Source of the DNA: a virus
Strand: one strand, 5' to 3'
UHGV virus genome: UHGV-0267581
DNA length: 30,715 bases
The position numbers and the translations under genes are program-made. Below are positions 1 to 27,857 of this stretch, piece after piece; position 1 is the first letter of the stretch, and every line of letters begins with the position of its first letter. The notes below the pieces were generated by a model. That model made no database searches. It saw nothing but the letters and a program-made list of their open reading frames with translations, and was not told the DNA's origin.

Positions 1-142
1 CTGCTGGTATTTTTTCATTATCGAATCGTAATTATGTGCAGATGATTCGGCAGTCTATATCAGTTGTTAAAAATGACAACTTTTCGTTAACTGTAATTAA
101 ACCATCACCAGCGATAACTCTTTGCCAAGCGCCTTTGCCGCA

Positions 143-177
<35 letters not shown>

Positions 178-251
178 GTTAAATAGGCGAGTAATCTCCT
201 GTTTAGGTTTTCCTAATATCATGTACCCACAATAACAAGAGGGGTACAACA

Positions 252-524
252 ATGAACATCGGTAAAGCAATCATCAACTACGCAGCGCGTCGCAACATGG
301 ACATTACCTTGATTGACGATGAGACCGTGGCGTTCTGGGAAGCGGATAACGATTGTGAATGGATGTTCTCCTACATGATTGGTAATGATGGTTTCCTCCA
401 CTTTAAAGGCAATGTGTATCTGCCGCAGGATATTAAAGAAGAATTACCAGCGTGCATCGATACAGACAAGAAGCTGAAAGAAGTAATCAACTTTATCGCT
501 AAAGAGTTTACCAGCAAGAAGTAA
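252..524 (+). CDS. hypothetical protein (90 aa)
   Basis: ORF with ATG start and an AGAGGGG Shine-Dalgarno-like motif about 9 nt upstream; its stop overlaps the next start (TAATG). No motif recognised. Confidence 0.5.
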   Translation: MNIGKAIINYAARRNMDITLIDDETVAFWEADNDCEWMFSYMIGNDGFLHFKGNVYLPQDIKEELPACIDTDKKLKEVINFIAKEFTSKK

Positions 525-961
525 TGTCTAATTTGGCGGGTACTATTCCCGCCGATTTAAACGGAATACAGACAATGTTCAATATTATGATTCGTAAATT
601 TGGTGAGATGACTTTCGAGAAAGCTGGTGTTGCTCGTACCGAAGAAGAAGCAATGGCCTTAGTTCTGGTAGCACTGAGATCATCTCCTGAGATTATCGAC
701 GCTGAATATGTTGCGGCTGAGGGTGAGATTAAAGAGATTAAAGCGGTGGCTAAGGAATTAGGTGTTAAAGATTTTCGTAAGCTGAGATTGACTCGTGAGA
801 CTTATGTAATTGGACAGCAAGGACAATACCTAGATGAGAATACCGTGATTGTTCTACTGAATAAGATTACCCGCTACGGTTGGAAGATTGAGCAATATAA
901 AACGTGTTTCGAATTATACGAAAAAGGTTTGCTGGATACTCTGACCATCGTTCGCGCTTAA
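524..961 (+). CDS. hypothetical protein (145 aa)
   Basis: ORF translationally coupled to the upstream ORF (TAATG overlap). Its first codons are encoded by hairpin element copy 1. No motif recognised. Confidence 0.5.
   Translation: MSNLAGTIPADLNGIQTMFNIMIRKFGEMTFEKAGVARTEEEAMALVLVALRSSPEIIDAEYVAAEGEIKEIKAVAKELGVKDFRKLRLTRETYVIGQQGQYLDENTVIVLLNKITRYGWKIEQYKTCFELYEKGLLDTLTIVRA
527..562 (+). repeat. conserved hairpin element, copy 1 (TCTAATTTGG / GGCGGG-TACTATT-CCCGCC / GATTTAAAC)
   Basis: 6-bp GC stem with 7-nt loop and conserved flanks, read directly. A second copy at 968-1005 has compensatory stem changes. Confidence 0.6.
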
Positions 962-967
962 TTAATT

Positions 968-1005
968 TCTAATTTGGTGGGTGCAATTCCCACCGCTTTT
1001 TAAAC
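968..1005 (+). repeat. conserved hairpin element, copy 2 (TCTAATTTGG / GGTGGG-TGCAATT-CCCACC / GCTTTTTAAAC)
   Basis: Same flanks and geometry as copy 1; stem differs by paired substitutions (C to T on the left arm, G to A on the right) that preserve pairing. Lies immediately after the stop of ORF 524-961. Confidence 0.6.
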
Positions 1006-1018
1006 TGGAGAATCAAAC

Positions 1019-1099
1019 ATGTTAGCTTTTATCTCATTCGTGGGAGGTAGTCTCACAACTATGATTAGTCTTTCTTATATTGTCGTTAGTATGGGGTGA
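1019..1099 (+). CDS. possible small hydrophobic peptide (26 aa, MLAFISFVGGSLTTMISLSYIVVSMG)
   Basis: Short ORF with GGAGA 7 nt upstream of ATG; hydrophobic composition. Hand-translated; below the size cut-off of the ORF track. Confidence 0.25.
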   Translation: MLAFISFVGGSLTTMISLSYIVVSMG

Positions 1100-1102
1100 G
1101 CA

Positions 1103-1228
1103 ATGAAACAATTTCATGATGGCATTTCATCTAAGACATTCAAGAAAGAATATAGCGGCTTGTGTATTGACTGGATGGATTTGATTGGCGCGGTTGTGTT
1201 TGGTCTGATTATTAGTATTAACTTTTAA
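1103..1228 (+). CDS. possible small membrane peptide (41 aa, C-terminal hydrophobic helix)
   Basis: Short ORF starting 4 nt after the previous peptide's stop; hydrophobic stretch LIGAVVFGLIISI. Weak SD. Hand-translated. Confidence 0.25.
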   Translation: MKQFHDGISSKTFKKEYSGLCIDWMDLIGAVVFGLIISINF

Positions 1229-1273
1229 CGATATAAATATATCGTAATTCAAACAACAAGAGGAAGTTCTACT

Positions 1274-1687
1274 ATGAAAAAGATTATCGCTGGTGTTGTT
1301 CTTGCTCTGGGTTTGGTTGGTGCTGCGAATGCTAATACCTATTATGTGTGTAATTCCTACTTCGAACATAAAGGAGATGATACACAATATCTTCGTGATG
1401 GCGACCGTTATTATCATGCGCCGTCTGGCAAATACCGTGGTTTTATCGGTGTAAAGGTTCGAGTGAATGATGATAATAGTCAATTTGCTTTCAACGATCC
1501 GGTATTTGATAAAACAATCAAAAGCCCAAAACTGAAAGAAGATAAGAACGAGAAAGAAGAATATTATGGTTCCGAAGATGGTAAATCCTACATCAAATAT
1601 CTGCATTCTGTAGATGGCGCGCCTATATTTGATGTTAAAAAAGGTGATACGTCTTATTCCCTGATTAGCTGCCGTGAAATTCTTTAA
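1274..1687 (+). CDS. secreted protein with N-terminal signal peptide (137 aa), function unknown
   Basis: AGAGGAAG SD upstream of ATG; N-terminus MKKIIAGVVLALGLVGAANA has a basic n-region, hydrophobic core and AxA cleavage motif; followed by a terminator. Confidence 0.65.
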   Translation: MKKIIAGVVLALGLVGAANANTYYVCNSYFEHKGDDTQYLRDGDRYYHAPSGKYRGFIGVKVRVNDDNSQFAFNDPVFDKTIKSPKLKEDKNEKEEYYGSEDGKSYIKYLHSVDGAPIFDVKKGDTSYSLISCREIL

Positions 1688-1702
1688 TCTTTAATCACCT
1701 AG

Positions 1703-1740
1703 CCCCTATCGTTATAATACGCGGTAGGGGCGTTTTGTTT
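1703..1740 (+). terminator. rho-independent terminator-like hairpin (imperfect dyad around TTATAATA) plus T-tract
   Basis: CCCCTATCG ... CGGTAGGGG stem with one wobble, followed by CGTTTTGTTT. Also a candidate recombinase site because of its dyad symmetry. Confidence 0.5.
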
Positions 1741-1749
1741 GGAAATGGT

Positions 1750-3429
1750 ATGAAAACTAAACTGTATTCGTATATTCGCTTCTCGTCTATGCGTCAGAAT
1801 GATGGTTCGAGTTATGAACGACAAATCAGGATGGCTAGAGAGATTGCGGTAAAGTATGACCTTGAACTGGTAAATGATTATCAGGATCTGGGTGTATCTG
1901 CGTTTAAGGGTGCTAACTCCAAAACAGGGGCGCTATCTCGTTTCCTTGATGCAATAGGTAGATCCGTTCCTGTTGGTAGCTGGCTATTCATCGAAAACTT
2001 GGACCGTTTATCCCGTGCCGATATTGTCAGTGCGCAGGAGTTATTCCTTTCAATCATCCGTAGGGGGATAACCATTGTTACTGGCATGGATAACAAGATC
2101 TACTCGCTGGATACTGTTACCGCTAACCCGATGGACCTGATGTTCTCCATCCTTTTATTCATCCGTGGTAATGAGGAAAGCCAGACTAAGCGCAATCGTA
2201 CTAACTCAAGCGCACTGATTAAGATTAAAGCTCATCAAGAAAATCCACAAAATCCGGCTGTTGCAATCGAGGAAATTGGAAAGAATATGTGGTGGACTGA
2301 TACCACATCTGGTTATGTGCTTCCTCATCCGGTCTTCTTCCCTATTGTTCAGGAAGTTGTGGAATTACGCAGGAATGGACGGTCAACCGCCGAGATACTG
2401 GATCACCTTAACGCGACATACACACCACCACCAGCCGCAAGTCACAAGAGGCATTCAAACTGGTCACGGGCAATGATTGAAAGGTTGTTCCATACCCGCG
2501 CTTTGATTGGTATCAAGGAAATCTCTGTAGATGGCGTTAAGTATGAGTTAAAGGATTATTATCCTCGTGTGCTAGATGACGCTGAGTTTTATCACCTTAA
2601 GAAAAGCATTGGTGTTAGAGCATGTAACTTTGGAGACAAAGAAGAAGTTAAACCTATTCCCTTGCTTAGTGGTGTTGGTCTATTGAAATGTGAACATTGC
2701 GGTTCCGCTATGGTTAAGGTGAAAGGAACAAACAGACGGCCTAACCAATATCGTTATTCATGCGATGCAATGCGCTCTAGTCGTATTGAATGTGTGCATA
2801 CAAACTGGAGTTTTCGCGGCGACCAATTAGAGAAAGCTGTATTGCAATTGCTGGCTGATAAAATCTGGATTGCTGAAGATAAGGCTAATCCGGTTCCGGC
2901 TTTGAAAGTACAGATTGATGAAATATCACGCAAGATTGATAACCTGATTACCCTTTCTGCTATGACAGGAGCAACGAAGGAGCTAGCCGATCAGATTACT
3001 ACCCTCAATAGCGAGCGTGAAACACTCTACAATCAAATTAAGATGGCAGAAGAGGAAATGTATTCTGTTGACTCTCAAGGCTGGGAGAAGCTCGCAGAAT
3101 TTGATTTAGAAGATGTTTACAACGAGGATCGCATTAAGGTCCGGTTTAAGATTAAGCAAGCTCTAAAACGGATCGGGTGTAGCAGGATTGACAAGTACAA
3201 AAACTTGTTTGTACTGGAATACATCGATGGCAAGACCCAGAGAGTTGTAATAGAAAATTCAAGAGGACCGAGGAAAGGCCGGATCTTCGTTGATTTGAAG
3301 ACTATCAATGATAGGCAGATTCTGGAGAGTAACGGGCTTGTTCTGCATCCATGTTTAGACATGCTGACAGATAAGAACTGGAAACCAGAAGAAGAAATAC
3401 CAGGTCCATTACAAGAATTTGGAATTTAA
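1750..3429 (+). CDS. large serine recombinase (integrase-type; resolvase-like catalytic domain plus zinc ribbon and coiled coil)
   Basis: N-terminal YIRFSSMRQ (catalytic Ser motif) and ENLDRLSRA (resolvase LDRLxR motif); cysteine cluster CEHCG ... YRYSCDA ... ECVH typical of the zinc beta-ribbon of large serine recombinases; heptad-rich C-terminus. ATG at 1750 preferred over the in-frame TTG at 1735. Confidence 0.85.
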   Translation: MKTKLYSYIRFSSMRQNDGSSYERQIRMAREIAVKYDLELVNDYQDLGVSAFKGANSKTGALSRFLDAIGRSVPVGSWLFIENLDRLSRADIVSAQELFLSIIRRGITIVTGMDNKIYSLDTVTANPMDLMFSILLFIRGNEESQTKRNRTNSSALIKIKAHQENPQNPAVAIEEIGKNMWWTDTTSGYVLPHPVFFPIVQEVVELRRNGRSTAEILDHLNATYTPPPAASHKRHSNWSRAMIERLFHTRALIGIKEISVDGVKYELKDYYPRVLDDAEFYHLKKSIGVRACNFGDKEEVKPIPLLSGVGLLKCEHCGSAMVKVKGTNRRPNQYRYSCDAMRSSRIECVHTNWSFRGDQLEKAVLQLLADKIWIAEDKANPVPALKVQIDEISRKIDNLITLSAMTGATKELADQITTLNSERETLYNQIKMAEEEMYSVDSQGWEKLAEFDLEDVYNEDRIKVRFKIKQALKRIGCSRIDKYKNLFVLEYIDGKTQRVVIENSRGPRKGRIFVDLKTINDRQILESNGLVLHPCLDMLTDKNWKPEEEIPGPLQEFGI

Positions 3430-3433
3430 GCTA

Positions 3434-3691
3434 ATGAAGATGATTAAGATTTTAGGTTTGATTTTATCTATGAATTCTTGCCTGGCATTGGCAACCGTAG
3501 ACCAAGAAATGCGTAGACCGCTAACCTATAGAGAAGATGCTTTCATTGATGGAGCACATAAGACATTGAAATTGCTATGTCAAAAGACCACCAGTAATTA
3601 CGGTGAATACAGAAAATGTTATGAGGAATCACTAGACATTTATTCTGATGAGGTGAGAAAGATTTTCATAGAACAAGAAAATAAATCATAG
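3434..3691 (+). CDS. small secreted protein or lipoprotein (about 85 aa), function unknown
   Basis: N-terminus MKMIKILGLILSMNSCLALA looks like a signal peptide with a possible Cys acylation site; start is ambiguous (the ORF opens at 3419, overlapping the recombinase stop). Confidence 0.45.
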   Translation: MKMIKILGLILSMNSCLALATVDQEMRRPLTYREDAFIDGAHKTLKLLCQKTTSNYGEYRKCYEESLDIYSDEVRKIFIEQENKS

Positions 3692-3727
3692 GCGGCCTAA
3701 ATCGCCGTATAACGAACCAAACGCTTT

Positions 3728-3752
3728 AAGGGGTACATCCGTACCCCTTTTT
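3728..3752 (+). terminator. rho-independent terminator (GGGGTAC-ATCC-GTACCCC followed by TTTTT)
   Basis: Perfect 7-bp stem, 4-nt loop and T-run, read directly; ends the plus-strand accessory block. Confidence 0.7.
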
Positions 3753-3933
3753 AATTTAATTGCGTTAGAGAGTCTATAATTGGCTTAAATCAAGCTCTAG
3801 GTCTTCCGGTTCTTTCATTACTTCAACCAGAGACGGATCTACTTCGTCAAAAACGACTTTATCGTCTGCGGTATATTTGTCTATAATGAAAAAATGGTCA
3901 GAAATATAGCTAACGTCGCCAGCATATTCTAAC

Positions 3934-3956
3934 AAAAAAGCGCCCACCAGAGGCGC
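3934..3956 (-). terminator. rho-independent terminator after the endolysin gene
   Basis: GC-rich hairpin (GCGCC ... GGCGC) with a U-tract on the minus strand (A6 at 3934-3939 on the plus strand), 8 nt downstream of the endolysin stop. Confidence 0.6.
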
Positions 3957-3963
3957 TTTTGTT

Positions 3964-4317
3964 TTATCCATTCCACCGTGATTTTTTTGATCTGGAATCG
4001 ATATGCGTAAATGTTTTATATTTTCCTAAGCCGTATTGAGTAGGATATTTCCCATCAAGATAAGCATGAACAATATCAGGTGAGACACCCTTGATAACAA
4101 TGTCAGCCGCACGGCCTCGAACGTGATAGCTATTGGCTGCCCCGCCTACATTCTTGTTATGAGTCGGGCAACGGTTGCCACTGTTAATAATCACTGGTTT
4201 ACCGAAGTGCTCTCGTACATCCTCAAGAATTACCAGTAATTCAGCGTCAATTGTATCATAATCACATTTTCCGCATTTACATTTAAATTCCTTGCGAGAA
4301 AAATGTTTGCTTAACAT
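3964..4317 (-). CDS. endolysin, peptidase M15-type (putative L-alanyl-D-glutamate or D-Ala-D-Ala metallopeptidase)
   Basis: Motif recognition: SGNRCPTHN ... SYHVRGRAADI ... FTHID gives the His/Asp/His zinc-ligand pattern of small phage M15 peptidases. Last gene before the terminator in the lysis cluster. Confidence 0.7.
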   Translation of the reverse strand: MLSKHFSRKEFKCKCGKCDYDTIDAELLVILEDVREHFGKPVIINSGNRCPTHNKNVGGAANSYHVRGRAADIVIKGVSPDIVHAYLDGKYPTQYGLGKYKTFTHIDSRSKKSRWNG

Positions 4318-4326
4318 ATTACCCCC

Positions 4327-4674
4327 TTAGATCATTTCGAAGATATAACCAATAAAGCGCATACCCTTGATATAATAAGGAGCAGTGCCTACACACACCG
4401 CGCGTGCATCGCCCAGACAATTAAAGCTATAAGGATTAACTACATCGACTTCTTGCCCGACACGAAAACGATACTTAGGACGTTTAGCCAATGTAGCGAC
4501 ACAAAACACGGTCCCCTTTTCATGGTCACGGATACATTCTTTATATTGTTTATGTTTAACTCTCTTCGCCTCAAAATCATAAGTCATTGATTCTGGGCTA
4601 ATGCCATTGATAAAAATACCGGAAAGCTGGTCGACCGGATAAGTAGGAAATTCAGTAAAAATATTTTTAGCCAT
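4327..4674 (-). CDS. hypothetical protein (115 aa)
   Basis: ORF in operon context between the basic protein and the endolysin; no motif recognised. Confidence 0.5.
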   Translation of the reverse strand: MAKNIFTEFPTYPVDQLSGIFINGISPESMTYDFEAKRVKHKQYKECIRDHEKGTVFCVATLAKRPKYRFRVGQEVDVVNPYSFNCLGDARAVCVGTAPYYIKGMRFIGYIFEMI

Positions 4675-4712
4675 GTTATACCCCCATAAGATTCTATGAG
4701 GGTATTTATGGA

Positions 4713-5396
4713 TTAAACGTATCTCATGCGCGATTTAATGTGCTTATTAATGTTCTTAAGCATCATTTCCTCGTTGCTTTCCCACGATCCTAGCGTCGAA
4801 TAACGAGTAGAAATTTTATCCGACTTAACGGCAACAATTCGCTTACTCTGTTTCTGGATGCGTTTCTCTAAGCGACGTTTTGCCACCGCCGATCCATTCT
4901 TAGCGCGTTTGGTTCGGGATTTCTTAGGCTTGTACTTCTTCATGATAAAAGTCCCTTCCTTGTTCTCTACCTTGATGAAGTTGCCGTTTTCGAGGTTACG
5001 CATCATCTTACCGCCTTTAATGGCCTTAATGTTCCCGTGGGAGTCTAAGACCTTACCGTTGGCGATTGGCACTAGCTTATTGATTTTGCCACCATCGAAA
5101 TAGTGTTTCAGATAGTCATCCTGACTGCCGATCTTCTTGTCCTTATCCCTTGCGCCCTTGATGAAGATTTGGTGTCTGGTCCCTGATCGGTTCTTGTAGT
5201 TGGTATTACCTACAGCTTGCTGAGTCCAGCGAGTAGGTCTATCAACTTGCTTGTTAATCTTCTTCTGGAGTGCTCTGGAAGCAAAGATCGCCCCTTCCCC
5301 TAACGCCCTTTCGAATGTATCGGTTGCTTTATCAGTCCATTGGCGTAACGCTTTCTTAGTCCTTAGAGCGTTTCGTTTATTGGTACTGATTGCCAT
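4713..5396 (-). CDS. hypothetical highly basic protein (227 aa; Lys/Arg-rich N- and C-terminal thirds)
   Basis: ORF translationally coupled to the upstream small membrane protein (stop and start 1 nt apart); strongly basic composition; no catalytic motif recognised. Confidence 0.55.
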   Translation of the reverse strand: MAISTNKRNALRTKKALRQWTDKATDTFERALGEGAIFASRALQKKINKQVDRPTRWTQQAVGNTNYKNRSGTRHQIFIKGARDKDKKIGSQDDYLKHYFDGGKINKLVPIANGKVLDSHGNIKAIKGGKMMRNLENGNFIKVENKEGTFIMKKYKPKKSRTKRAKNGSAVAKRRLEKRIQKQSKRIVAVKSDKISTRYSTLGSWESNEEMMLKNINKHIKSRMRYV

Positions 5397-5397
5397 G

Positions 5398-5568
5398 TTA
5401 GCCCCCTAATAACGAAAAGACCCCCGCCAGTGTCCTTAGCAATTGTTCATCCACGGTCATAGCCGGGAGTTCAAGCCCAAAGGACGTAAGCAGAGGTCTA
5501 ATTGCTACGTTATAAGTGAGGGCGATAATCAAGAGATAACCAAAATATTTCTTAAGTTTATTCTTCAT
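5398..5568 (-). CDS. small membrane protein (56 aa, one predicted transmembrane helix); lysis-associated candidate
   Basis: Hand-translated ORF with AAGGGGTG SD 5 nt upstream of ATG; sequence MKNKLKKYFGYLLIIALTYNVAIRPLL has a hydrophobic helix; no Cys, so not an o-spanin lipoprotein. Absent from the ORF track (under 60 aa). Confidence 0.45.
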   Translation of the reverse strand: MKNKLKKYFGYLLIIALTYNVAIRPLLTSFGLELPAMTVDEQLLRTLAGVFSLLGG

Positions 5569-5589
5569 ATATTCACCCCTTTATTATTA

Positions 5590-5868
5590 TTATTTTTGTT
5601 TGAGTATGTCGAGAACTTGGTCAAATTTGGCGTCCATCGCAACCACTTTCTTCTCTATACCGTGTAGTGTTTGTTCCATGCGATAAACTCTCTCGGCGAT
5701 CTGGTCATGGTTACTTTGCATCGTCTCAAACTTCTGGTTTAACAATGCGTCGCTGGATTCCAATTTCGACAATCTATTTTCAGTTGCTAATTGATTTCGG
5801 TGAAGTCTCCAAAGACCACCGCAAATTAAGGCGATAACACCGATACCGCCATATATAATTTCAGTCAT
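5590..5868 (-). CDS. membrane-anchored coiled-coil protein (92 aa); candidate holin or i-spanin-like lysis protein
   Basis: N-terminal hydrophobic helix IIYGGIGVIALICGGLW followed by a heptad-rich soluble region; first gene after the tail-tip terminator and upstream of the endolysin. Confidence 0.45.
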   Translation of the reverse strand: MTEIIYGGIGVIALICGGLWRLHRNQLATENRLSKLESSDALLNQKFETMQSNHDQIAERVYRMEQTLHGIEKKVVAMDAKFDQVLDILKQK

Positions 5869-5911
5869 TACGCCCCCGATATTTTTATAATTTCATGGCA
5901 GAATTATTTAG

Positions 5912-5953
5912 ATAAAAATAATCCCGCCTAACTCAAAAGAATTAAGCGGGATT
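5912..5953 (-). terminator. terminator-like hairpin after the J-like gene
   Basis: 8-bp stem AATCCCGC / GCGGGATT with an 18-nt loop and flanking A/T tracts on both strands; the long loop lowers confidence. Confidence 0.4.
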
Positions 5954-5971
5954 TATTATTAAAATTAAATT

Positions 5972-8900
5972 TTAAGAAACAGTAATACCAGTAGTGGCTT
6001 TTTTAGTTACCATTACCGTTAAATCACTGATCCATGTGCTAGGCGTCCAGTTGTTGATTGCGCTTGATTGCACTTCAAAGGTCAAGGTCACAGCACCCTT
6101 ACCCGCTGGCATATCAATAACACCTGAGTAAAGACCAGTATTACCGCCATACGCCCTATTATACAACTCTGACCCATTCTTACGAACAATAAGGCGACAG
6201 GTGTCGTAAAACGTATTATTGTTCGACCCTTCACGCGCTCGCAATCCACCAAAACTAACAGCCGGAATAACGATTTGACGATCGAACTTGTGATCATCTT
6301 CAACGCGAACAGTGACCGTACCCTGTGGATAACCAGCATAACCATTATCAACGTTAACATCACGATGCGGGAACTTACGTCCAATCACCTTAACGAAATC
6401 ACCCTTAACCTGAGTAGCTTCAAGCATACCCTTAATAACACAGCTAGAGTTAATCGTGACGTTGTTCAGAGTACCAGAATCGGCAGTGATATTACCTTTA
6501 ACGGTTGCATTCATGAACGTAGCGGACCCGTTCTTGTTGATATGCCATCCGGTCGATCCGTTCCAGTTGGAAGACTGGATATAGTTACCGATTTTAGCGT
6601 TATCAATTGCACCGTTTACGATCTTCGCGTTAGTGATTGCCCCGTCCTGAATCTTCGCGCTGTTAATTGCAGCATTGCCGATTTTAGCCGTGGTAATCGC
6701 CGCATCATTAATCTGGGCTGTACCAATTGCAGCATTACGAATCATCGCATTATCGAGATAAACCTTGTTACCTTCGATACCAAACGGGCATACTTCCGAT
6801 CCGTTCTGTGGAGCTACCGCGATTTTATCAGCATTAAAGATGATTCTCGTCGGTTGCGCCGGATCGTTGGTTGCGCTCATGTGAATACCAGCCACGCGAC
6901 CATCTGCATTAACTGCCAGATTATATTTGCTGTTAATGGTTCCTTTCAAAGCATCGATTTTTACATCTGCTTCCTGATTCACGCCAGCAATCTTGCCATC
7001 CATTTCTACCCGAACTTGATCAATCTTGCTTGCGCTTGCTGCCTCACTGGTAGCAATTGCTTGTTTCAGGGTAGTAGCAGATGCGCTGACTTCGGATTTA
7101 ATATCGCCTTTCAGTTCAGCTTTAACCTGATCAATCTTAGTGGAGCTAGCTTGCTCGCTGGTAGCAATCAGACTCTTTAAGGTATTGGCTGAGGCTTGGA
7201 CCGTCTGCCCTGTTTCGGTAGTGATTTGCTTATGCATTGCATCAATTTTAGCATCGGCATTAGCGCCAGCTTGAGCAATAGCATCCGCGATAGTTTCATC
7301 TAAGCGGTCTTGTAAACCAATCAGGTCTTCCAGTGCTTCTTTGTCCTGATCGTCCCAGCTAATTGTAGATCTCATTTGCATGAAATAAGGTTCAGACCAA
7401 ACAGCATCATCCATACCGAAAATATCGTAATGTGCCGCACGAAGATAATAATCACCATCAGCCAAAACAAAGGAAGTATGGCTAACACTATTCGTGCTTA
7501 CTGCCCTTGCATCGGAGAAAGTGTTATCGGTTGCATACTGGATGATTGACCCTGCATAATCATGTTCTACGTCATCTGCCCAGCTAACAAACACACTATT
7601 AAAGCCACCACGCGCACTAAAACCTTTCATTGGCTTATGTTGTGGGTTGATAGCCACTAAACGCGCTGGGGCGCTCTCTGAGTTGTTATAGCCCTTAGCC
7701 GATACTTCTACCGTCAGTTGACGCGAAAGGCCGTTAAACTGGTTCATATCAAGCGTATAAGTCCATGATTCAGGATCGCGGGTACGGTACTGAATAGACT
7801 TACCAGCCTTGTTAGTCACCTTGATAATGTATGCTTCAAACAGGTCACTAAACTTGTTAGTTTCACCGTTGATCTCAACATCTAATTGTTGCTGATTTTC
7901 CCATTCGATAATCAGATCATTACCTTCGAAAGTTCCTGGCGTGCTACCCTGATTTTTGATTCGAATAACCGGAGTCGGCAATTCATAGGTAACAGTAGGA
8001 TTCTGGTTAATCAGTTCTACCCAATCGGATCGAGCGATGATACCGAAAGCACAAACTCGGTAATCATAAGAGCGATCTTTAGCCAGTGCATTGACACTGA
8101 AAATTTGCTGTGAAGTCTGACCGAGCTTAATCCAGTTAGGTGATCCGCTTACACGGTAATCAATCTGGAAACCGTAGCGGTTAAAATCTTCCGGTGCATC
8201 CCATGTCAAAGTAACGTTCTTACCATAGATGGTTTCACCAGTTGCCTTAATTCTGAAATTAGTAGGCTTCTGTACTGTCATTGAATCCGGTAAACCACTT
8301 GGTCTATTGTCTGGAGTTGCCGCATAGTTCAGGTCAGTATAAACTTGAGAATTATATTCTGTGGCGGTGATAGTCATCATCCCAGCAATACCAGAATCAA
8401 TCGAGCGATCAATTGCAGTAATACGCCATAAGGAATTATTCAGCTTCAATTCATCATAGGTTACGCTGATAACGTCCCAAACTTCGGCAGTGAATGCGTC
8501 AGTAGTCATAAAGCTGATAACCTGAGTGATACGAGATTTATTTCGTTCTACACTCGCAAGTTTATCAATCTGGGCTTTAGACTTAACAAAACGATATTCA
8601 ATATCTTTAGCGATAATTCGACCATCTTGACGAATAGTAGCATCGTTTTCAGCATCAGCCGGATAACGTAGCATTTGCTCTGAATAGTCAATTGATGGTT
8701 CTTGATACATCGCGTTAATGGTATTGAAATAACCGTTAGTGCCACCTGTTTTCAGTGATACCTTACCCATCATGATATTGTCTTCATTGAAGGTATGCTT
8801 AACAATATCAGGAGCATCCAGTTTCAGGGTAATTCTTCCGAAGGATTCGAACATCACCCCGCCGAAAGTCTGCATAAGGCTAGTCAAGTTCTCTTTAAAG

Positions 8901-9748
8901 CTGGCGTTCGGATCACATGCACCGTTTGAATGTAGGTCCATCTGGCGTACTTGTTTACGTACTTTCAGGAATGAATCAACGTTGATGTTTTCAATTGGTA
9001 CTGATAAACCATATTTTTCATTTGTTAGGTAGTGGAAAATCTGGTCCACGCCGTTAGTGCTAGCCTCAATAGCATTAGTTTCAAGGTTACGAATCTTTAA
9101 GCCCATAACATCGACTGCTACCTGGCTATTTGGCTGGAGAATATCAACACCAGCAGCAAGAGATTTGTCATCACGACGTAACACAATACACATGGTTGCA
9201 ATACCATTGCCTTTGTAGTTGTCGTTCCAGTCTGATCCTAAATGACGTTTTGCCAGTGACAAAGCGGTGTTAGGATTCTTACCCGTGCGGAACTCAACTT
9301 CTAAGACTTTCCGGTATTCTTCTTTAATGTTGCCTTTGTCCAGTACACCATCACGGATCGTCATGTTCTTACCAACAAGAACATTTTTGTTATCGATAAA
9401 CAGTGCTTTGTAATGGTCGATTTCACCCTCGGCAATTGCGAAGATTTGCACTAACTTATTGTTTTCTTGCTTGGAAATTGCCTTATAAACGCAGATTGCA
9501 CCCGTGCGGGTAGTACCAAAAAGAACGGGTAATACTGTCTTAGGATCGTTTGATGTTCCTAGTGTCACCGCATTATCCGGGCTTTGTACTTTCGGTGTTT
9601 TTGGTGCGCCTACAGTGGAAGCGATCAAGGTCATTGCACCAGCAGCCATACCGATAGCGACTGCGGTCATAACCGAAAATGTTGCGGCTGCCGCCATCCC
9701 CGCCGAAGCACCAGCAATAACCGCGCCTACCAATACTTCAAATCCCAT
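5972..9748 (-). CDS. tail tip / host-specificity protein (lambda J-like central fiber, 1258 aa)
   Basis: Last and largest gene after the tape measure and three small tail proteins (lambda order H-M-L-K-I-J); fibronectin-III-like segments (for example VTLTWDAPED); 10-residue repeats (AIxxAKIxNx) and other tandem repeats near the C-terminus; N-terminal Gly/Ala-rich hydrophobic stretch. Confidence 0.75.
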   Translation of the reverse strand: MGFEVLVGAVIAGASAGMAAAATFSVMTAVAIGMAAGAMTLIASTVGAPKTPKVQSPDNAVTLGTSNDPKTVLPVLFGTTRTGAICVYKAISKQENNKLVQIFAIAEGEIDHYKALFIDNKNVLVGKNMTIRDGVLDKGNIKEEYRKVLEVEFRTGKNPNTALSLAKRHLGSDWNDNYKGNGIATMCIVLRRDDKSLAAGVDILQPNSQVAVDVMGLKIRNLETNAIEASTNGVDQIFHYLTNEKYGLSVPIENINVDSFLKVRKQVRQMDLHSNGACDPNASFKENLTSLMQTFGGVMFESFGRITLKLDAPDIVKHTFNEDNIMMGKVSLKTGGTNGYFNTINAMYQEPSIDYSEQMLRYPADAENDATIRQDGRIIAKDIEYRFVKSKAQIDKLASVERNKSRITQVISFMTTDAFTAEVWDVISVTYDELKLNNSLWRITAIDRSIDSGIAGMMTITATEYNSQVYTDLNYAATPDNRPSGLPDSMTVQKPTNFRIKATGETIYGKNVTLTWDAPEDFNRYGFQIDYRVSGSPNWIKLGQTSQQIFSVNALAKDRSYDYRVCAFGIIARSDWVELINQNPTVTYELPTPVIRIKNQGSTPGTFEGNDLIIEWENQQQLDVEINGETNKFSDLFEAYIIKVTNKAGKSIQYRTRDPESWTYTLDMNQFNGLSRQLTVEVSAKGYNNSESAPARLVAINPQHKPMKGFSARGGFNSVFVSWADDVEHDYAGSIIQYATDNTFSDARAVSTNSVSHTSFVLADGDYYLRAAHYDIFGMDDAVWSEPYFMQMRSTISWDDQDKEALEDLIGLQDRLDETIADAIAQAGANADAKIDAMHKQITTETGQTVQASANTLKSLIATSEQASSTKIDQVKAELKGDIKSEVSASATTLKQAIATSEAASASKIDQVRVEMDGKIAGVNQEADVKIDALKGTINSKYNLAVNADGRVAGIHMSATNDPAQPTRIIFNADKIAVAPQNGSEVCPFGIEGNKVYLDNAMIRNAAIGTAQINDAAITTAKIGNAAINSAKIQDGAITNAKIVNGAIDNAKIGNYIQSSNWNGSTGWHINKNGSATFMNATVKGNITADSGTLNNVTINSSCVIKGMLEATQVKGDFVKVIGRKFPHRDVNVDNGYAGYPQGTVTVRVEDDHKFDRQIVIPAVSFGGLRAREGSNNNTFYDTCRLIVRKNGSELYNRAYGGNTGLYSGVIDMPAGKGAVTLTFEVQSSAINNWTPSTWISDLTVMVTKKATTGITVS

Positions 9749-11477: not shown

Positions 11478-13832
11478 TTACATCTTACGGCGTTGTGCGT
11501 CTTCTACCGCCTGAGCAACTAACTTAGCGTGACGTTTGATAGCATCCATGACCATCTTGTCTGAGCTATTAACGTTGCCGTTAATGTTCAAAGGTGCGTT
11601 AACTTCAATCGGCTGAGAGTTGCCACCGCCTGATTTTTGAGCAGCAAGGAAGTCTTTCAAATCACCGTTAGTACGCTGATCAACTACTCGTTCACCCTTA
11701 TCAAGCAACCATGTACCCTCACGAGGGATATTATCGATACCATCATGAGCCATACCGCTAACGTTAGTAGACTTGATGTTTGCGATGTTCCCCATGTTCT
11801 GAGAAACAGCCAATGCAGCAGCAGCGATCTTTTGTCCTGTGGTTACGTTGGTCGGATCGTTCCATGCATCGGTAGCAGCCGTCCACATGTTCACCGTCGC
11901 TTGTCCAATGGAGAATGCTTTATGAGCATTGAAAGCCATCTGCATAGCTTTAGTGTTTTCCTGCCCGAAGAGAGTCATTGCAGCAGCAAAACCGCCATAC
12001 ATATCATCGGCTATTGACTGGCGAGCATCAGCATATTTCTTTTCAATTGCAGCCATCCGTTTTTGATGGTTTTCATTGAGTTTTTCTAATGCAGCCATCC
12101 GTTTAGCTGGATCATTAATACCATCAATATTGAGTTTTTCGGTCTTATAATCTTGTTCAGCTTCCGATTTCTCTTGATCGATTGCATTAAATTTAGCAAA
12201 CGGGTTATTTGAATCCTGATAGTCTAAGCTATTAGTCAATTGATTGGTTTTAAAACCATCCATTCCCTGTAACTGACTATCAATCTGAGAATAGTTTTGC
12301 TCGGTATCATTCACACGACGCATATATTCTTCGTAGGAGATAGCTTTACCATCAAGTAACCGTTTATGGCTTTCTAGCTCGTTGTCCCTGATTTGTTGCA
12401 AAACTGTTAAGGCATTCAGAGCATCAATCGGATCAGCACCCAACATCATTTTATAGATGTTTTCTGCGTTCTGATCTAACAGTTGCTGACGTTTAGCGGC
12501 TGCGTCTTGCTGAGAGATTAAGCCCATATCTAAAGCAGTGTCTAAATCTTTCAAGCTGGCTTCTAACTGCTTGTTTTGAGAAGCAATAGACGCGGCTGTC
12601 TGTCCTTGCAATTTAACATCAAGAGCATTCAGTCGCTTGATTGCATCCTCGCGTGCTTTCTGTGCTTTTTCTGCGGCTTCCTTAGCCTTTTTAGCTGCCT
12701 CTTCCGCTTTCTTCTTGGCTTCTTCTTGTTCTTTTTTCGATGGTCCGGTGACGCCTCCACCTTGACCCGTTGGGGTAAATCCGGTATCCGATTTATTTCC
12801 AGTGATAGTAATTACCGGATCACCGTTTTTATCACGGGTAACGCCTTCACTATCCACCCAACGATCAGGATAATTTGGTTTATTGTTGAAGCTGGCTTGT
12901 CCACCCGCTAGACCAGTAGAACTATAACCATGCTTGTTAATAAAACCACCGTTAGCCATAGCCATATTCTGGCGAGCTTTTTCAAACCTTTCATTAAAAG
13001 TCTTTAATGCGTTGAATAAAGCGGTCTTTTCCCAATCTTTATCAAACCAGTTGTAAAGATTATTCATCCCTTCAACAACTGGATTTAGTGCATTTGCAGC
13101 CATACCCTTTAAGTTATCGGTAAGGGTATCCATATTTTTAGAGAATTTATTATATTCTTCGGCTGTGTCATTGGTGATTTTAACAGTTTGCTGATTAATG
13201 GCGTTTACAGCTTCCTGATAAGATCCGTATTTCTGCAATTCATCAGCCATATGACTTGAATCACTGGCTAACGATTCCATCATAAACTTAACATCAGCGA
13301 TAGACGCACCAGCCTTGCGCATATCATAGAAGACCTTGATCGCCGCTTTCATCCCGCCTTGTGGATCGTTCATAAACTCGGCATAATCTTTAATCTTCAA
13401 ACCTACACTTTCTAGGTCGTCTTCAATACCGCCACCGTTACGCCATGCATCAGCCAGCTTATCTAAGGTGTCTTTGTTAATATCACCAAATTTCTCAACG
13501 GTTAAGCCAGTACCGGAGAATTGCTTCTCTAATTTCTGGAGTGTTTCGACGGTTAAACCAGTTGCTTTTGAAACTTCGCTGTATTCCTTTACATAATCAC
13601 CGATGGCATTTGCAGCAGAAATAGCGCCAGCAGCCAAACCAACAAAACCACCAGCAGCCAAAGCAAGCGATCCACCAGTTCCGCGAAGGGTTCCACTTAA
13701 ACTAGATAAACCACCAGACAAATCAAGATTCATTGCCCTTTCTGAAAGGTTATCAAGCATCTCTATCGCCTGATTGGTACTTCTCCTTAGACCGTCATTA
13801 TCTCCTTCTATTGTTACTATATGTCTTGTCAT
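11478..13832 (-). CDS. tail tape measure protein (784 aa)
   Basis: Long protein directly after the chaperone pair; Gly-rich hydrophobic segment near the N-terminus, extended coiled-coil stretch (KKEQEEAKKKAEEAAKKAKEAAEKAQKAREDAIKRL); followed by a hairpin. Confidence 0.85.
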   Translation of the reverse strand: MTRHIVTIEGDNDGLRRSTNQAIEMLDNLSERAMNLDLSGGLSSLSGTLRGTGGSLALAAGGFVGLAAGAISAANAIGDYVKEYSEVSKATGLTVETLQKLEKQFSGTGLTVEKFGDINKDTLDKLADAWRNGGGIEDDLESVGLKIKDYAEFMNDPQGGMKAAIKVFYDMRKAGASIADVKFMMESLASDSSHMADELQKYGSYQEAVNAINQQTVKITNDTAEEYNKFSKNMDTLTDNLKGMAANALNPVVEGMNNLYNWFDKDWEKTALFNALKTFNERFEKARQNMAMANGGFINKHGYSSTGLAGGQASFNNKPNYPDRWVDSEGVTRDKNGDPVITITGNKSDTGFTPTGQGGGVTGPSKKEQEEAKKKAEEAAKKAKEAAEKAQKAREDAIKRLNALDVKLQGQTAASIASQNKQLEASLKDLDTALDMGLISQQDAAAKRQQLLDQNAENIYKMMLGADPIDALNALTVLQQIRDNELESHKRLLDGKAISYEEYMRRVNDTEQNYSQIDSQLQGMDGFKTNQLTNSLDYQDSNNPFAKFNAIDQEKSEAEQDYKTEKLNIDGINDPAKRMAALEKLNENHQKRMAAIEKKYADARQSIADDMYGGFAAAMTLFGQENTKAMQMAFNAHKAFSIGQATVNMWTAATDAWNDPTNVTTGQKIAAAALAVSQNMGNIANIKSTNVSGMAHDGIDNIPREGTWLLDKGERVVDQRTNGDLKDFLAAQKSGGGNSQPIEVNAPLNINGNVNSSDKMVMDAIKRHAKLVAQAVEDAQRRKM

Positions 13833-14572: not shown

Positions 14573-15079
14573 TTAAGAGATTTTCAAAGTCTGCTTAGTG
14601 CCAGTCTTCTTAATGTTATTGAGGAAAGCAGCCGGAGGATTGCTTAACCAATAGTAATGAAAACCGCTTTGCATACTGTTATAAGGAACAGTGACAGCAG
14701 CACCACCCAAATTAACGGTTATATTCCCCGCTCTACCGTTCTGGAGATATACAGCCATAGTAGGAGTACCGCCATTGAATTGACCAACGATAACGCCAAT
14801 CAGACGCCCTACGCCCACGTTTTCGGGGTTCTCCATAGATCCTTTACCGCGCATGTCAGTTACTGGATAGTTTGAAGCAGTTACACCCCAGTTATTACCC
14901 AATGAAGTAGACCACGCAGCAGTAGCTACAACCGTATCCATACCACGACCACACATCGCACTCATGTTAGCTGGGCGACTAACCTTTAATGCGTTCATTG
15001 CTGCGCTCATCCATCGTTGACCAGTTACAGAAACAGCAGATGACCCGACCCAGCCAGGCTTATTAACGACATTCGCCAT
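14573..15079 (-). CDS. virion structural protein of unknown role (168 aa; Gly/Ala/Ser/Thr/Asn-rich, almost uncharged)
   Basis: GGAG SD 8 nt upstream; lies between the tail-tube candidate and the chaperone gene. Confidence 0.5.
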   Translation of the reverse strand: MANVVNKPGWVGSSAVSVTGQRWMSAAMNALKVSRPANMSAMCGRGMDTVVATAAWSTSLGNNWGVTASNYPVTDMRGKGSMENPENVGVGRLIGVIVGQFNGGTPTMAVYLQNGRAGNITVNLGGAAVTVPYNSMQSGFHYYWLSNPPAAFLNNIKKTGTKQTLKIS

Positions 15080-15121: not shown

Positions 15122-15127
15122 TTATAA

Positions 15128-15250
15128 TTAATCTTTAGCCTTGCGGCTTCGTTTAGCTGTGGCTTTCGCCGTAACTTCTTCTACTTCTGGAATCACCACC
15201 GCTTCATGTTCCGGCTGTGGTTCCGGTTCGGGAAGTTCTTCGTTAGTTCA
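15128..15250 (-). other. in-frame recoded extension after a TGA stop (39 codons: TNEELPEPEPQPEHEAVVIPEVEEVTAKATAKRSRKAKD, ending TAA)
   Basis: Hand-translated; same frame as the upstream gene, no internal ATG, UGA-ACU-AAC context and C-terminal VTAKAT...RK.K motif shared with the extension after the capsid gene. Confidence 0.55.
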
Positions 15251-15721
15251 TCCGGCAGTGAAGATTTGCTGTTTCAGCGGAGCACCATCCACCGCGAAGG
15301 TAAACTCTTTGGTTACAACTTCTTCATCGCCACCGTTCATAGCAACTTTAGAAATGAAGCCGTTGAAAGCGGTGCGAATACCAGTCTGTTTTGCTGCGTC
15401 AACGTAATATTCTACTTTAATCTGAATACGAGTACCGTCTTCGGCAGCTTTGATCAGTTTTTCATGTACCGCATCGCCTGGGATGTAGTTAACGGTCAGA
15501 GTCAGATCAGGAACGTTCAGCTTCCCTACCAGTTTACGGTTATACTGAGAAGAGAAGGATTTAACTTCTACAGTACCGCGCTCGATACCAGTTTCAGGAA
15601 AACCAGCACACTCTTTAATTTCTTCGTAGCTTTCGTGGTCGAGAGCGGTATTAGTGGTGTCCGCGTGATAGAACAGACTTACCAGACCACCAGTAAAAAT
15701 ATCTTTGAATTGCTGAGACAT
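15248..15721 (-). CDS. major tail (tube) protein candidate, 157 aa
   Basis: AAGGGGTAATTCT SD context shared with the other abundant late genes; size and position fit a tail-tube protein; carries the TGA-readthrough extension. The role (tube versus other abundant virion protein) is inferred. Confidence 0.5.
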   Translation of the reverse strand: MSQQFKDIFTGGLVSLFYHADTTNTALDHESYEEIKECAGFPETGIERGTVEVKSFSSQYNRKLVGKLNVPDLTLTVNYIPGDAVHEKLIKAAEDGTRIQIKVEYYVDAAKQTGIRTAFNGFISKVAMNGGDEEVVTKEFTFAVDGAPLKQQIFTAG

Positions 15722-15777
15722 AGAATTACCCCTTAATTAAAATTGTTATTACGGGGGAACTAGTCCCCCGACTTTTA

Positions 15778-19278: not shown

Positions 19279-19359
19279 CTAGAATCACCTCACTATAAAA
19301 CAGGAATAAGGGAGGCGTTAACCTCCCAACGTTCATGTTTTATTTAGGTAGGAGAATCC

Positions 19360-20193
19360 TTAGTATTCGCCGAAATCGATCCGGTCAGTCTTAGCCACTG
19401 CGCCAATTTCGCTAGGTGTCGGTTTCTCATTGGTGGAATATACCTTGATCCATTCAGAACGACCGTTTTCCTGAATATTTCGGACACGTAAACGCGGTGC
19501 GCCAGAAGTATTACAGGTTAATTGCCATGCGCCATGCTCATTAGCTTGAAGGTGAATTAATGCTGTGTCGGTTGAATATGGATTACCGCTAGCAGTTCCC
19601 TTGTAAGTTACGAAACGGTTTCCGGCTAATGCCTCGCTGTCAATCGGACCCGTGAATGGATTTACACCAGCACCCAAACCAAAATCACCCTGACGTAAGA
19701 TCCGGCCTTCGGTAGCAATACCCCTTGCCAAAATCCCGCCATCTGGTTCAAGTTTAAATTCCAGTGTTACAGCTTTGTTATCACTACCACGGGTTTTATG
19801 TGATGTGACGTAAGCATCGAATATACAAAAGTACCCTGTGTTAGCAGCACTATAGCCAGAGTTCACAACATAGAACATACGGAAGCGTAAAGGTGTTTTA
19901 TCCTCTACCGCTTTCATCAACATTGCTTGATGTTCATCGTCAAGAACACGGTTTAATGTGAGTGTTGTCGGTTCCAGTCTACGATAACCAGCAAGTTTCC
20001 CCGTAGCGTCCTGATCGTACTCTTCCAGAGTTTCTATCTCTGTGGATTCGGTTAGCGTAGGGAATGCTGCGATGTTCTCCATAGAACTAAAGCTAGGATC
20101 GAAAAAGTCGACCTGATTGTCTATCTGGTTAGAGATCGACACTTCAACATGTGATCCAGTGAAAATATCTAAGTTATCTTGTGTAATATTCAT
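19360..20193 (-). CDS. virion structural protein (277 aa); possible tail or collar protein with a C-terminal KPTPSEIG motif
   Basis: Late-operon position between connector-size genes and the fiber; the C-terminal NEKPTPSEIGAV resembles the motifs in the fiber; followed by a hairpin. Confidence 0.5.
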   Translation of the reverse strand: MNITQDNLDIFTGSHVEVSISNQIDNQVDFFDPSFSSMENIAAFPTLTESTEIETLEEYDQDATGKLAGYRRLEPTTLTLNRVLDDEHQAMLMKAVEDKTPLRFRMFYVVNSGYSAANTGYFCIFDAYVTSHKTRGSDNKAVTLEFKLEPDGGILARGIATEGRILRQGDFGLGAGVNPFTGPIDSEALAGNRFVTYKGTASGNPYSTDTALIHLQANEHGAWQLTCNTSGAPRLRVRNIQENGRSEWIKVYSTNEKPTPSEIGAVAKTDRIDFGEY

Positions 20194-27829: not shown

Positions 27830-27857
27830 AGGTGAACATTCACTTTAATTTGGAGAA

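What the first reader, a model, noticed from the sequence alone, without database searches (positions are those of the whole stretch)
1688..3429. Large serine recombinase placed convergently against the lysis/virion operon, with a dyad-symmetric site upstream
Seen in sequence: the 564-aa protein has the catalytic-serine motif (YIRFSSMRQ), the resolvase-like LDRLSR motif and a Cys-rich zinc-ribbon segment. Established knowledge: large serine recombinases act as phage integrases, transposases or developmental excisionases. Inference: the element may be temperate, which would make the window a prophage segment, or the recombinase could act on a nearby cassette. The imperfect inverted repeat around TTATAATA at 1703-1730 doubles as a terminator-like hairpin and is one candidate recombination site; the hairpin pair around ORF 524-961 is another.
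Basis: partly seen in the sequence, partly recalled or inferred. Interest (0 to 1): 0.55.

Follow-up and report, generated by a model that had tools for sequence, protein, structure and literature searches.

The report
Prophage serine integrase targeting hicB

Summary
Window 1750-3429 (+) encodes a 559-aa large serine recombinase (LSR). Resolvase, Recombinase and Zn-ribbon domains all score above the Pfam thresholds. The catalytic motif Y8-R10-S12, the D85-R86-R89 motif and four zinc cysteines are conserved, and the predicted fold matches the SPbeta SprA, PhiC31 and Listeria integrases.

The guess that the element is temperate is right. Window 1-210 is E. coli chromosome (ydcR start and the 3' end of hicB). 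The rest is a roughly 35-kb siphovirus-like prophage, present in about 1% of complete E. coli genomes, that splits hicB.

Comparing attL, attR and the empty site in several strains places the crossover on TT (window 209-210). The reconstructed attP has two 26-bp imperfect inverted arms around that TT. Relatives with 86% and about 79% identity sit inside ycdX and codB.

Both proposed sites are wrong:
- The dyad at 1702-1731 is an intrinsic terminator in front of the integrase gene.
- The hairpin pair at 527-554 and 968-995 is a direct repeat flanking a cargo-gene indel.

Integration removes the recognition helix and dimerisation strand of the HicB DNA-binding domain. hicA stays intact in strain H2, the one lysogen where this was examined in detail, but is frameshifted in others.

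This is an ordinary mechanism with a new target. No excised form and no directionality factor were found.

The parts
1..18 (-). Host DNA: first codons of ydcR (host flank)
   Evidence: Window 1 corresponds to L001 12001, and ydcR is annotated at L001 10612-12018. Window 1-213 is 98.6% identical to K-12.
97..210 (-). Host DNA: 3' fragment of hicB (HicB codons about 102-138), cut off from its 5' part by the prophage
   Evidence: RefSeq annotates 'hicB, incomplete, missing N-terminus' at the same place in strains H2 and 14EC029. The sequence matches K-12 hicB up to the core.
183..236 (+). attL: host B arm (183-208), crossover dinucleotide TT (209-210), phage P' arm TCCTAATATCATGTACCCACAATAAC (211-236)
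   Evidence: Junction comparison with K-12 attB and with attL/attR of H2, 14EC029 and the ycdX-type relative. The P' arm occurs once in the window, with 0 expected by chance. The extent of the B arm is assumed by symmetry, not measured.
252..524 (+). Cargo ORF (90 aa, phrog_6147, unknown function) between attL and int
   Evidence: A 75%-identical variant is present in relatives.
524..961 (+). Cargo ORF (145 aa, phrog_14908), present or absent among relatives, flanked by direct copies of a hairpin element (527-554 and 968-995)
1274..1687 (+). Cargo ORF with a signal peptide (137 aa). The mature part is replaced in many relatives
1702..1740 (+). Intrinsic terminator: 11-bp stem, 8-nt loop containing TATAAT, then GTTTTGTTTG. 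It lies 10-48 nt upstream of the int ATG and is conserved in every relative matched
1750..3429 (+). Large serine recombinase (phage integrase), 559 aa: catalytic domain 1-~125 and long helix E 127-164, recombinase domain ~180-293, zinc ribbon 310-370, coiled coil ~382-437, C-terminal beta-rich region 472-515
3434..3691 (+). Small ORF (85 aa) with an N-terminal signal-like sequence, directly downstream of int. No family match
3692..3749 (+). Terminator hairpins between the int unit and the convergent lysis/virion genes

Best explanation
The protein is the integrase of a roughly 35-kb temperate siphovirus-like phage. The window shows the phage as a prophage inside the E. coli antitoxin gene hicB.

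Proposed mechanism: integrase dimers bind a roughly 54-bp attP on the circular phage genome, made of two 26-bp imperfect inverted arms around TT. They also bind attB in hicB (...CTCCTGTTTAGGT-TT-GCCAATTCGCC...), which covers codons G101-K104 in the helix-turn-helix. Ser12 cuts both sites with a 2-nt stagger at TT. Subunit rotation and religation then give attL (window ~183-236) and attR, about 35 kb away and beyond the window end. Because TT is not palindromic, the orientation is fixed. Excision would need a phage directionality factor, which I did not identify.

The hairpin just upstream of int is a terminator that shields int from the cargo genes lying between attL and int.

Shown here: the domain architecture, the conserved catalytic and zinc residues, the junction sequences, the position of the crossover, the attP symmetry, and the distribution among strains. 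Inferred: enzymatic activity, present-day excision, and the effect on hicAB.
For: 1. Family: three Pfam domains above threshold and phrog_95 'integrase' at 3e-58. In 21 homologues down to 27% identity, Y8, R10, Q16, D85, R86, R89, C314, C317, C338 and C348 are invariant and S12 is at least 90% conserved. A profile of these hits SPbeta SprA (4e-17), PhiC31, a 500-aa chain labelled only 'Integrase' (9iu2) and TP901-1 integrase. The AF2 model (pLDDT 78) has full-length Foldseek matches to SprA, PhiC31 and LI integrase complexes at E 1e-16 to 1e-9.

2. Prophage: window 1-213 is K-12 chromosome. The remainder encodes terminase, portal, capsid, tape measure, tail tip, fibres and endolysin. Sixteen complete E. 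coli genomes hold at least 80% of window 1-25000. In strain H2 the element lies between a hicB 3' fragment and a hicB 5' fragment next to hicA.

3. Crossover:
- H2: attL ..TTTAGGT-TT-CCCTAAT and attR ..ACATTTAGGT-TT-GCCAATT.
- 14EC029: attL ..TTTAGGT-TT-GCCTAAT and attR ..ACATTCGGG-TT-GCCAATT.
- Together these leave only TT. In the ycdX-type relative, the bases on both sides of TT differ between the phage and host partners (GGA-TT-CCC and GGG-TT-TCC), so the exchange is confined to 2 bp.

4. attP symmetry peaks exactly at that TT in all three reconstructed attP sites: 15, 18 and 16 matches of 26, against a next-best centre of 11-12. Only 2 of 100,000 shuffles reach 18.

5. Mobility: two different attP variants occupy the same attB. 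The LSR is in 54-57 of 5426 genomes from varied hosts, and empty sites match from exactly the first base of the core.
Against: No intact attP (excised or virion form) was found in IMG/VR or in JGI metagenome contigs with exact-pattern scans. No directionality factor, repressor or replication gene was recognised. No cultured phage is close: DNA gives only a 63-bp hit, and the best capsid match is 43% identical. The window itself lacks attR, so its own attP is inferred from relatives. attB shows only weak dyad symmetry, 7 of 20. All evidence is comparative, and no activity has been measured.
Confidence: 0.85

Rival explanations
1. The prophage is a fixed, defective remnant. The recombinase once integrated it but no longer excises it, so the gene is a relic.
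For: No attP was found in viral or metagenome collections. No RDF or repressor was recognised. No cultured relative exists. One relative has IS1 inside the recombinase gene (H47).
Against: The int ORF is full length with every catalytic and zinc residue. The virion module is complete with long open genes. At least two attP variants occupy the same site, and relatives sit at ycdX and codB, which shows repeated recent integrations. Only about 1% of genomes carry it.
Confidence: 0.1
2. The recombinase acts on an internal cassette as an invertase, resolvase or cassette excisionase, using the 1702-1731 dyad or the 527/968 hairpin pair.
For: ORF 524-961 is present or absent among relatives exactly between the two hairpin copies. 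phrog_125 'DNA invertase' gives a weak secondary hit at 7e-11.
Against: The hairpin copies are direct repeats of a terminator-like element and do not resemble attP or attB. The P' arm occurs once in the window. The 1702-1731 dyad is a single site with a T-tract, and it is the same in the hicB-type and codB-type relatives matched. The protein has the full LSR architecture, not the roughly 190-aa invertase form. No convincing long inverted repeats were found. An indel between 40-bp direct repeats is explained by homologous or illegitimate recombination.
Confidence: 0.03
3. The recombinase and the adjacent cargo genes (about 211-3700) form a separate small mobile element or satellite that landed next to an unrelated prophage.
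For: The cargo region beside int is mosaic and variable. The int gene is 99.9% identical to copies in strains whose prophage body is only about 92-93% identical over the window.
Against: The partner half-site, the attP left arm, lies at the far end of the 35-kb prophage beside the hicB 5' fragment. It is the inverted-repeat mate of the arm next to int. The same layout recurs at ycdX. The unit moved is therefore the whole phage.
Confidence: 0.02

Closest known systems
SPbeta SprA (YokA), the Bacillus subtilis prophage serine integrase that splits spsM
   Same: It is the best match among solved structures by sequence profile (4e-17) and by fold (1.6e-16, full length). It has the same domain order, it integrates a whole prophage inside a host ORF, and it needs an RDF (SprB) for excision (PMC5499854).
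   Different: Only about 13-14% identity in the structural alignment. The host phylum and target gene differ. Developmentally timed excision is shown for SPbeta but not here. No SprB-like RDF was found.
Listeria A118 / LI integrase (PDB 4KIS, 6DNW) and PhiC31 integrase
   Same: Recombinase domain, zinc ribbon and coiled-coil architecture. attP is built of imperfect inverted arms around a 2-bp non-palindromic crossover. From my own knowledge, A118-type phages integrate inside comK.
   Different: Distant in sequence. The arm motifs differ (NCC-TAA...AACCCA.AATAAC here) and so do the targets.
YbcK-type large serine recombinases of lambdoid E. coli phages (4A7, D2, Perceval) and Burkholderia phage Bcep176 gp53
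   Same: These are the closest proteins in cultured phages. They are also LSRs.
   Different: Only about 30% identity over 80-85% of the length.
Sister LSRs in E. coli prophages at ycdX (strain FDAARGOS_1267) and codB (strain 06-00048)
   Same: Nucleotide identity to the int gene is 86% (ycdX type) and about 79% over 73% of it (codB type). The prophage backbone is the same at ycdX. The ycdX-type junctions and the codB attL have the same TT crossover with an ..NCCTAA.. phage arm, and the identical terminator in front of int was confirmed for the codB-type locus. All insert within a gene.
   Different: They target different host genes. For codB only attL was examined.

Membership tests
Large serine recombinase / phage serine integrase | N-terminal resolvase-type catalytic domain with the nucleophilic Ser and conserved Arg residues | tested here: met
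   PF00239 scores 54 bits against a cutoff of 23. Y8, R10, Q16, D85, R86 and R89 are invariant and S12 is at least 90% conserved in 21 homologues. The domain aligns with the 3GUV and TP901-1 catalytic domains.
Large serine recombinase / phage serine integrase | Recombinase domain followed by a zinc-ribbon domain with four Cys | tested here: met
   PF07508 and PF13408 both score above threshold. C314, C317, C338 and C348 are invariant.
Large serine recombinase / phage serine integrase | Coiled-coil motif emerging from the zinc-ribbon domain | tested here: met
   The AF2 model has helices 382-406 and 410-437 after the ribbon. Full-length Foldseek matches to SprA and PhiC31 complexes. This rests on a prediction only.
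Large serine recombinase / phage serine integrase | attP of about 50 bp with imperfect inverted arms; attP and attB share little beyond a short core | tested here: met
   Three reconstructed attP sites have 26-bp arms matching at 15, 18 and 16 of 26 positions, and the peak falls only at the TT centre. attP and attB share TTTAGGTTT at most, and only GG.TT.CC in the ycdX type.
Large serine recombinase / phage serine integrase | Conservative exchange at a 2-bp, non-palindromic crossover, without target duplication | tested here: met
   attL plus attR rebuild K-12 attB exactly. Variant arms restrict the exchange to TT. This is comparative evidence, not biochemical.
Large serine recombinase / phage serine integrase | Excision controlled by a recombination directionality factor | tested here: inconclusive
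   No excisionase or RDF family hit was found among the small ORFs of the window or of the rest of the prophage. RDFs are diverse and many have no profile.
Large serine recombinase / phage serine integrase | Catalytic activity on its att sites | not testable with these tools
   This needs in vitro or in vivo recombination assays.
Small serine DNA invertase (Hin/Gin/Pin) | A protein of about 190 aa with a C-terminal HTH, acting on a pair of inverted sites that flank an invertible segment | tested here: not met
   The protein is 559 aa with recombinase and Zn-ribbon domains. No matching inverted site pair was found.
Gene-splitting 'active lysogeny' prophage (SPbeta/spsM, phi10403S/comK) | The prophage interrupts a host ORF that precise excision restores | tested here: met
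   hicB is split after codon 101-102, and attL plus attR rebuild the intact gene.
Gene-splitting 'active lysogeny' prophage (SPbeta/spsM, phi10403S/comK) | Host-regulated, non-lytic excision used as a genetic switch | not testable with these tools
   No expression or excision data are available.
Intrinsic (rho-independent) terminator, for the 1702-1731 dyad | A G+C-rich stem-loop directly followed by a T-run, downstream of a stop codon | tested here: met
   An 11-bp stem with 7 GC pairs, tail GTTTTGTTTG, starting 15 nt after the stop of ORF 1274-1687. Free energy -22.6 kcal/mol, z = -4.0.

The most novel reading that the evidence does not exclude
Integration into hicB is not neutral. It removes the recognition helix and dimerisation strand of the HicB DNA-binding domain but keeps the HicA-neutralising N-terminal domain and, in some lysogens, an intact hicA. 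This would rewire the chromosomal HicAB toxin-antitoxin module: loss of autorepression and altered toxin/antitoxin stoichiometry. Precise excision would restore it. The prophage would then act as a reversible switch on a toxin-antitoxin system, for example affecting superinfection defence, persistence or prophage retention. The sister phages at ycdX and codB would show that this LSR lineage retargets readily to new intragenic sites.
Probability: 0.12. Interest if true: 0.6.

Novelty: new member of a known kind. Interest (0 to 1): 0.33.

Why it matters
It corrects the anatomy. The recombination site is a defined attL at window ~183-236, with a TT crossover inside hicB, not the hairpins near the gene.

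It also gives a testable attP/attB pair for an uncharacterised enterobacterial LSR lineage. Close relatives with the same attP right (P') arm in the ycdX-type relative target hicB and ycdX, and a codB-type relative with a similar arm targets codB. That makes a natural series for studying how serine integrases change target, and possibly a source of orthogonal integrases that work in E. coli.

I found no earlier report of hicB as a phage attachment site. The search covered only open-access full text.

The biological consequence for HicAB is an open and easily tested question.

Tried and rejected
1. I looked for the phage among cultured phages. Megablast of window 1-6000 found only a 63-bp hit. 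The best capsid match was 43% identical.

2. I looked for an intact attP in IMG/VR and in JGI metagenome contigs. Both gave 0 hits, so there is no evidence of an excised form.

3. I scanned GTDB species-representative genomes for relatives of the LSR. No candidate was confirmed by tblastn.

4. I searched the supplements of the large LSR/att-site survey (PMC10083194) for the att core, the protein N-terminus and 'hicB'. Nothing turned up in the files held.

5. I first considered the GGCGA...TCGCC symmetry in attB, which would centre the site on core positions 2-3. I rejected it because the attP symmetry and the variant junctions place the crossover at core positions 8-9.

6. I asked whether lysogens preferentially carry a broken hicA. 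A 22-bp frameshift deletion is present in 14EC029 and PI7, and about 8 of the 35 listed lysogens carry the same 'mRNA interferase' label. The same allele was the top exact match in 39 other genomes whose lysogen status I did not check, and the search could not separate the alleles quantitatively, so no enrichment is claimed.

7. I looked for an RDF, repressor or replication genes with PHROGs and Pfam on the small ORFs. None was recognised.

Full report

Yes. The ORF list shows 1735-3429 (+), 564 aa from a TTG. The sequence has an ATG at 1750 giving MKTKLYSYIRFSSMRQ..., 559 aa. I take 1750 as the start for three reasons:
- The TTG lies in the T-tail of the upstream terminator.
- RefSeq annotates the homologue in strain H2 as 559 aa.
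- Nearly all full-length database homologues above 90% identity are 559 aa.

Pfam finds Resolvase (6-153), Recombinase (198-286) and Zn_ribbon_recom (310-368), all above their gathering scores. PHROGs gives phrog_95 'integrase' at 3e-58.

I aligned the protein with 20 homologues ranging from 86% to 27% identity. Y8, R10, Q16, D85, R86, R89 and the four cysteines C314, C317, C338 and C348 are invariant. S12 is conserved in at least 90% of sequences. A profile of that alignment hits SPbeta SprA (4e-17), PhiC31 integrase, a 500-aa chain labelled only 'Integrase' (9iu2) and TP901-1 integrase among solved structures.

An AlphaFold2 model (mean pLDDT 78) shows the expected order: catalytic domain, long helix E, recombinase domain, zinc ribbon, and two long helices at 382-437 that form the coiled coil. 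Foldseek ranks the SprA, PhiC31 and Listeria LI integrase-DNA complexes first, with E from 1e-16 to 1e-9.

The gene converges on the minus-strand lysis and virion genes. The dyad at 1702-1731 and the hairpins at 527-554 and 968-995 are all present.

**2. What is the surrounding element?**

The rest of the window is a siphovirus-like virion and lysis module on the minus strand:

| Gene | Window coordinates |
|---|---|
| Endolysin | 3964-4317 |
| Tail tip protein | 5972-9748 |
| Tape measure | 11478-13832 |
| Tail tube | 15248-15721 |
| Long tail fibre | 15778-19278 |
| Capsid | 21091-23097 |
| Portal | 23143-24654 |
| Large terminase | 25232-27136 |
| Rha/Ant-like regulator | 28171-28968 |

No cultured phage is close. 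However, 16 complete E. coli genomes contain at least 80% of window 1-25000 at about 91-93% identity. Between 54 and 57 of 5426 genomes carry the recombinase gene, 19 of them at 99% identity or more.

**3. Where is the recombination site?**

In E. coli H2 the element is about 35 kb. It lies between a hicB 3' fragment next to ydcR and a hicB 5' fragment next to hicA. Window 1-213 is 98.6% identical to K-12 ydcR-hicB, so the window begins in the chromosome.

The junction sequences are as follows:

| Site | Sequence |
|---|---|
| K-12 empty site (attB) | ...GAGTAATCTCCTG TTTAGGTTT GCCAATTCGCCTGGC... |
| Window attL | ...CTCCTG TTTAGGTTT TCCTAATATCATGTACCCACAATAAC... |
| H2 attR | ...GTTATTGGGGTTTACAACA TTTAGGTTT GCCAATTCG... 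|

The shared core is therefore TTTAGGTTT, at window 202-210.

Two further comparisons narrow the crossover.
- Strain 14EC029 carries an integrase gene 99.8% identical at the nucleotide level. Its attR is ...GACTACATTCGGG-TT-GCCAATT and its attL is ...TTTAGGT-TT-GCCTAAT. Phage-specific bases therefore run right up to the base before the last TT.
- In H2 and in the window, phage-specific bases begin right after that TT.

In the ycdX-type relative, attL is GGA-TT-CCC and attR is GGG-TT-TCC, so only the TT can have been exchanged.

The crossover is thus TT at window 209-210. This 2-bp, non-palindromic exchange is what a serine recombinase produces.

All three reconstructed attP sites have 26-bp arms whose inverted-repeat match (15, 18 and 16 of 26) peaks only at that TT. 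Just 2 of 100,000 shuffles reach 18. All the half-sites except the left arm of the codB attB begin NCC, and most continue (T/A)A.

attB itself is only weakly symmetric, at 7 of 20.

**4.

*The 1702-1731 dyad.* This has an 11-bp stem with 7 GC pairs, followed by GTTTTGTTTG. It starts 15 nt after the stop of ORF 1274-1687 and ends 19 nt before the int ATG. Its free energy is -22.6 kcal/mol with z = -4.0. The stem and the int start are the same, apart from one loop base and small differences in the T-tract, in every relative matched by the search. That holds even where the upstream cargo gene differs, and it includes a codB-type relative.

That is the anatomy of an intrinsic terminator insulating int. 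It is internal to the prophage and so is not an att site. Its loop contains a perfect TATAAT. Whether that acts as the -10 element of an int promoter is my inference only, and the consensus promoter scan did not call it.

*The 527-554 and 968-995 hairpins.* These are direct repeats of one element. Relatives L018, L019, L021, L023 and L029 lack ORF 524-961 and have a single copy directly after the stop of the preceding ORF. The pair therefore marks a cargo-gene indel. It has no similarity to attP or attB, and the P' arm occurs once in the window.

**5. What is the consequence for the host gene?**

HicB is 138 aa. Pfam places the HicB-like antitoxin domain at 3-67 and HTH_3 at 88-134. The crossover falls in codon K102, in the sequence G101-K-P-K.

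In lysogens the 5' fragment would encode residues 1-101 plus 8 codons read across the junction (KPKCCKPQ* in H2). According to a review of HicAB, the N-terminal domain of HicB neutralises HicA, and E. coli HicB binds DNA and dimerises through the C-terminal HTH and the strand that follows it (PMC11594946).

The lysogen should therefore keep toxin neutralisation and lose operator binding. This is inference. hicA is intact in H2. It carries a 22-bp frameshift deletion in 14EC029 and PI7, but the same allele was the top exact match in 39 other genomes whose lysogen status I did not check. I draw no conclusion from it.

**6. Relatives and novelty**

The LSR lineage occurs in E. coli, Shigella, Salmonella, E. 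fergusonii and Edwardsiella, and is named only 'recombinase family protein'.

A relative whose int gene is 86% identical at the nucleotide level sits in ycdX, on the same prophage backbone. A relative about 79% identical at the nucleotide level, over 73% of the gene, sits in codB.

The closest proteins in cultured phages are about 30% identical: Bcep176 gp53 and the YbcK-type LSRs of lambdoid phages.

Full-text searches found no report of hicB as a phage attachment site. The supplements held for the large LSR survey did not contain this site or protein.

**7. Limits**

- No excised form was found.
- No RDF, repressor or replication gene was recognised.
- The window lacks attR.
- All the evidence for the mechanism is comparative.

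**8. Verdict**

This is a genuine, intact large serine integrase of a prophage. The real site is attL at about 183-236, with a TT crossover inside hicB. It is a new member of a known kind. Interest is modest, and would rise only if splitting hicB proves to have a regulatory role.

Noticed in passing
window 15125-15250 and 20962-21093 (minus strand): The tail tube gene and the major capsid gene both end in TGA in the same context (TGA ACT AAC G). Both are followed in frame by a similar open extension of about 40 codons (...VTAKATAKRSRKAKD* and ...VTAKATVKKQRKTKE*), then a shared terminator. The open frame is kept in relatives despite substitutions (L001, L026). This looks like programmed UGA read-through making C-terminally extended capsid and tail-tube proteins.
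   Followed up: partly
window 524-995: ORF 524-961 is a presence/absence cassette flanked by direct copies of a roughly 40-bp hairpin element (527-554 and 968-995). The two stems differ by compensatory changes (GCGGG/CCCGC versus GTGGG/CCCAC). Relatives without the ORF have one copy acting as the terminator of the preceding gene.
   Followed up: yes
window 1245-1702: The secreted-protein gene 1274-1687 keeps its ribosome site and signal peptide (MKKIIAGVVLALGLVGAANA) in relatives, but the mature part (about 1333-1701) is replaced by unrelated sequence in many of them. The cargo slot is bounded on the right by the conserved terminator.
   Followed up: partly
window 1019-1099 and 1103-1228: Two tiny hydrophobic ORFs (26 and 41 aa, each with one predicted membrane helix) lie back to back between the cargo genes. 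They are conserved in relative L018. Their function is unknown, and they were too short for the ORF list.
   Followed up: no
L039 1197-1351 and L040 1036-1190 (host hicA next to attR): Some lysogens (14EC029, PI7 and others) have a 22-bp frameshift deletion in the toxin gene hicA, while strain H2 has it intact. The same deletion allele was the top exact match in 39 other genomes whose lysogen status I did not check, so no link to the prophage is shown.
   Followed up: partly
L035 (E. coli 06-00048) and L036/L042 (E. coli FDAARGOS_1267): Sister prophages with int genes about 79% and 86% identical at the nucleotide level are inserted inside codB and ycdX. The crossover is again TT, and the phage arm is the same or similar.
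   Followed up: partly
window 15248-20193: A 1166-aa long-tail-fibre-like gene (15778-19278) lies between two genes that both hit the major tail protein family phrog_158 (15248-15721 and 19360-20193). A gp38-like adhesin gene sits downstream at 14573-15079. This is an unusual position for a fibre gene, inside the tail-tube region.
   Followed up: no
window 27224-30715 and L001 41000-47380: The roughly 8 kb of the prophage outside the virion module has no recognisable repressor, replication or excision gene. It contains only a Rha/Ant-like regulator, a small-terminase-like ORF and an LprI-family gene next to attR. A direct repeat TTTTCAA.CAAAAATTTTGA occurs at 30531 and 30680.
   Followed up: no
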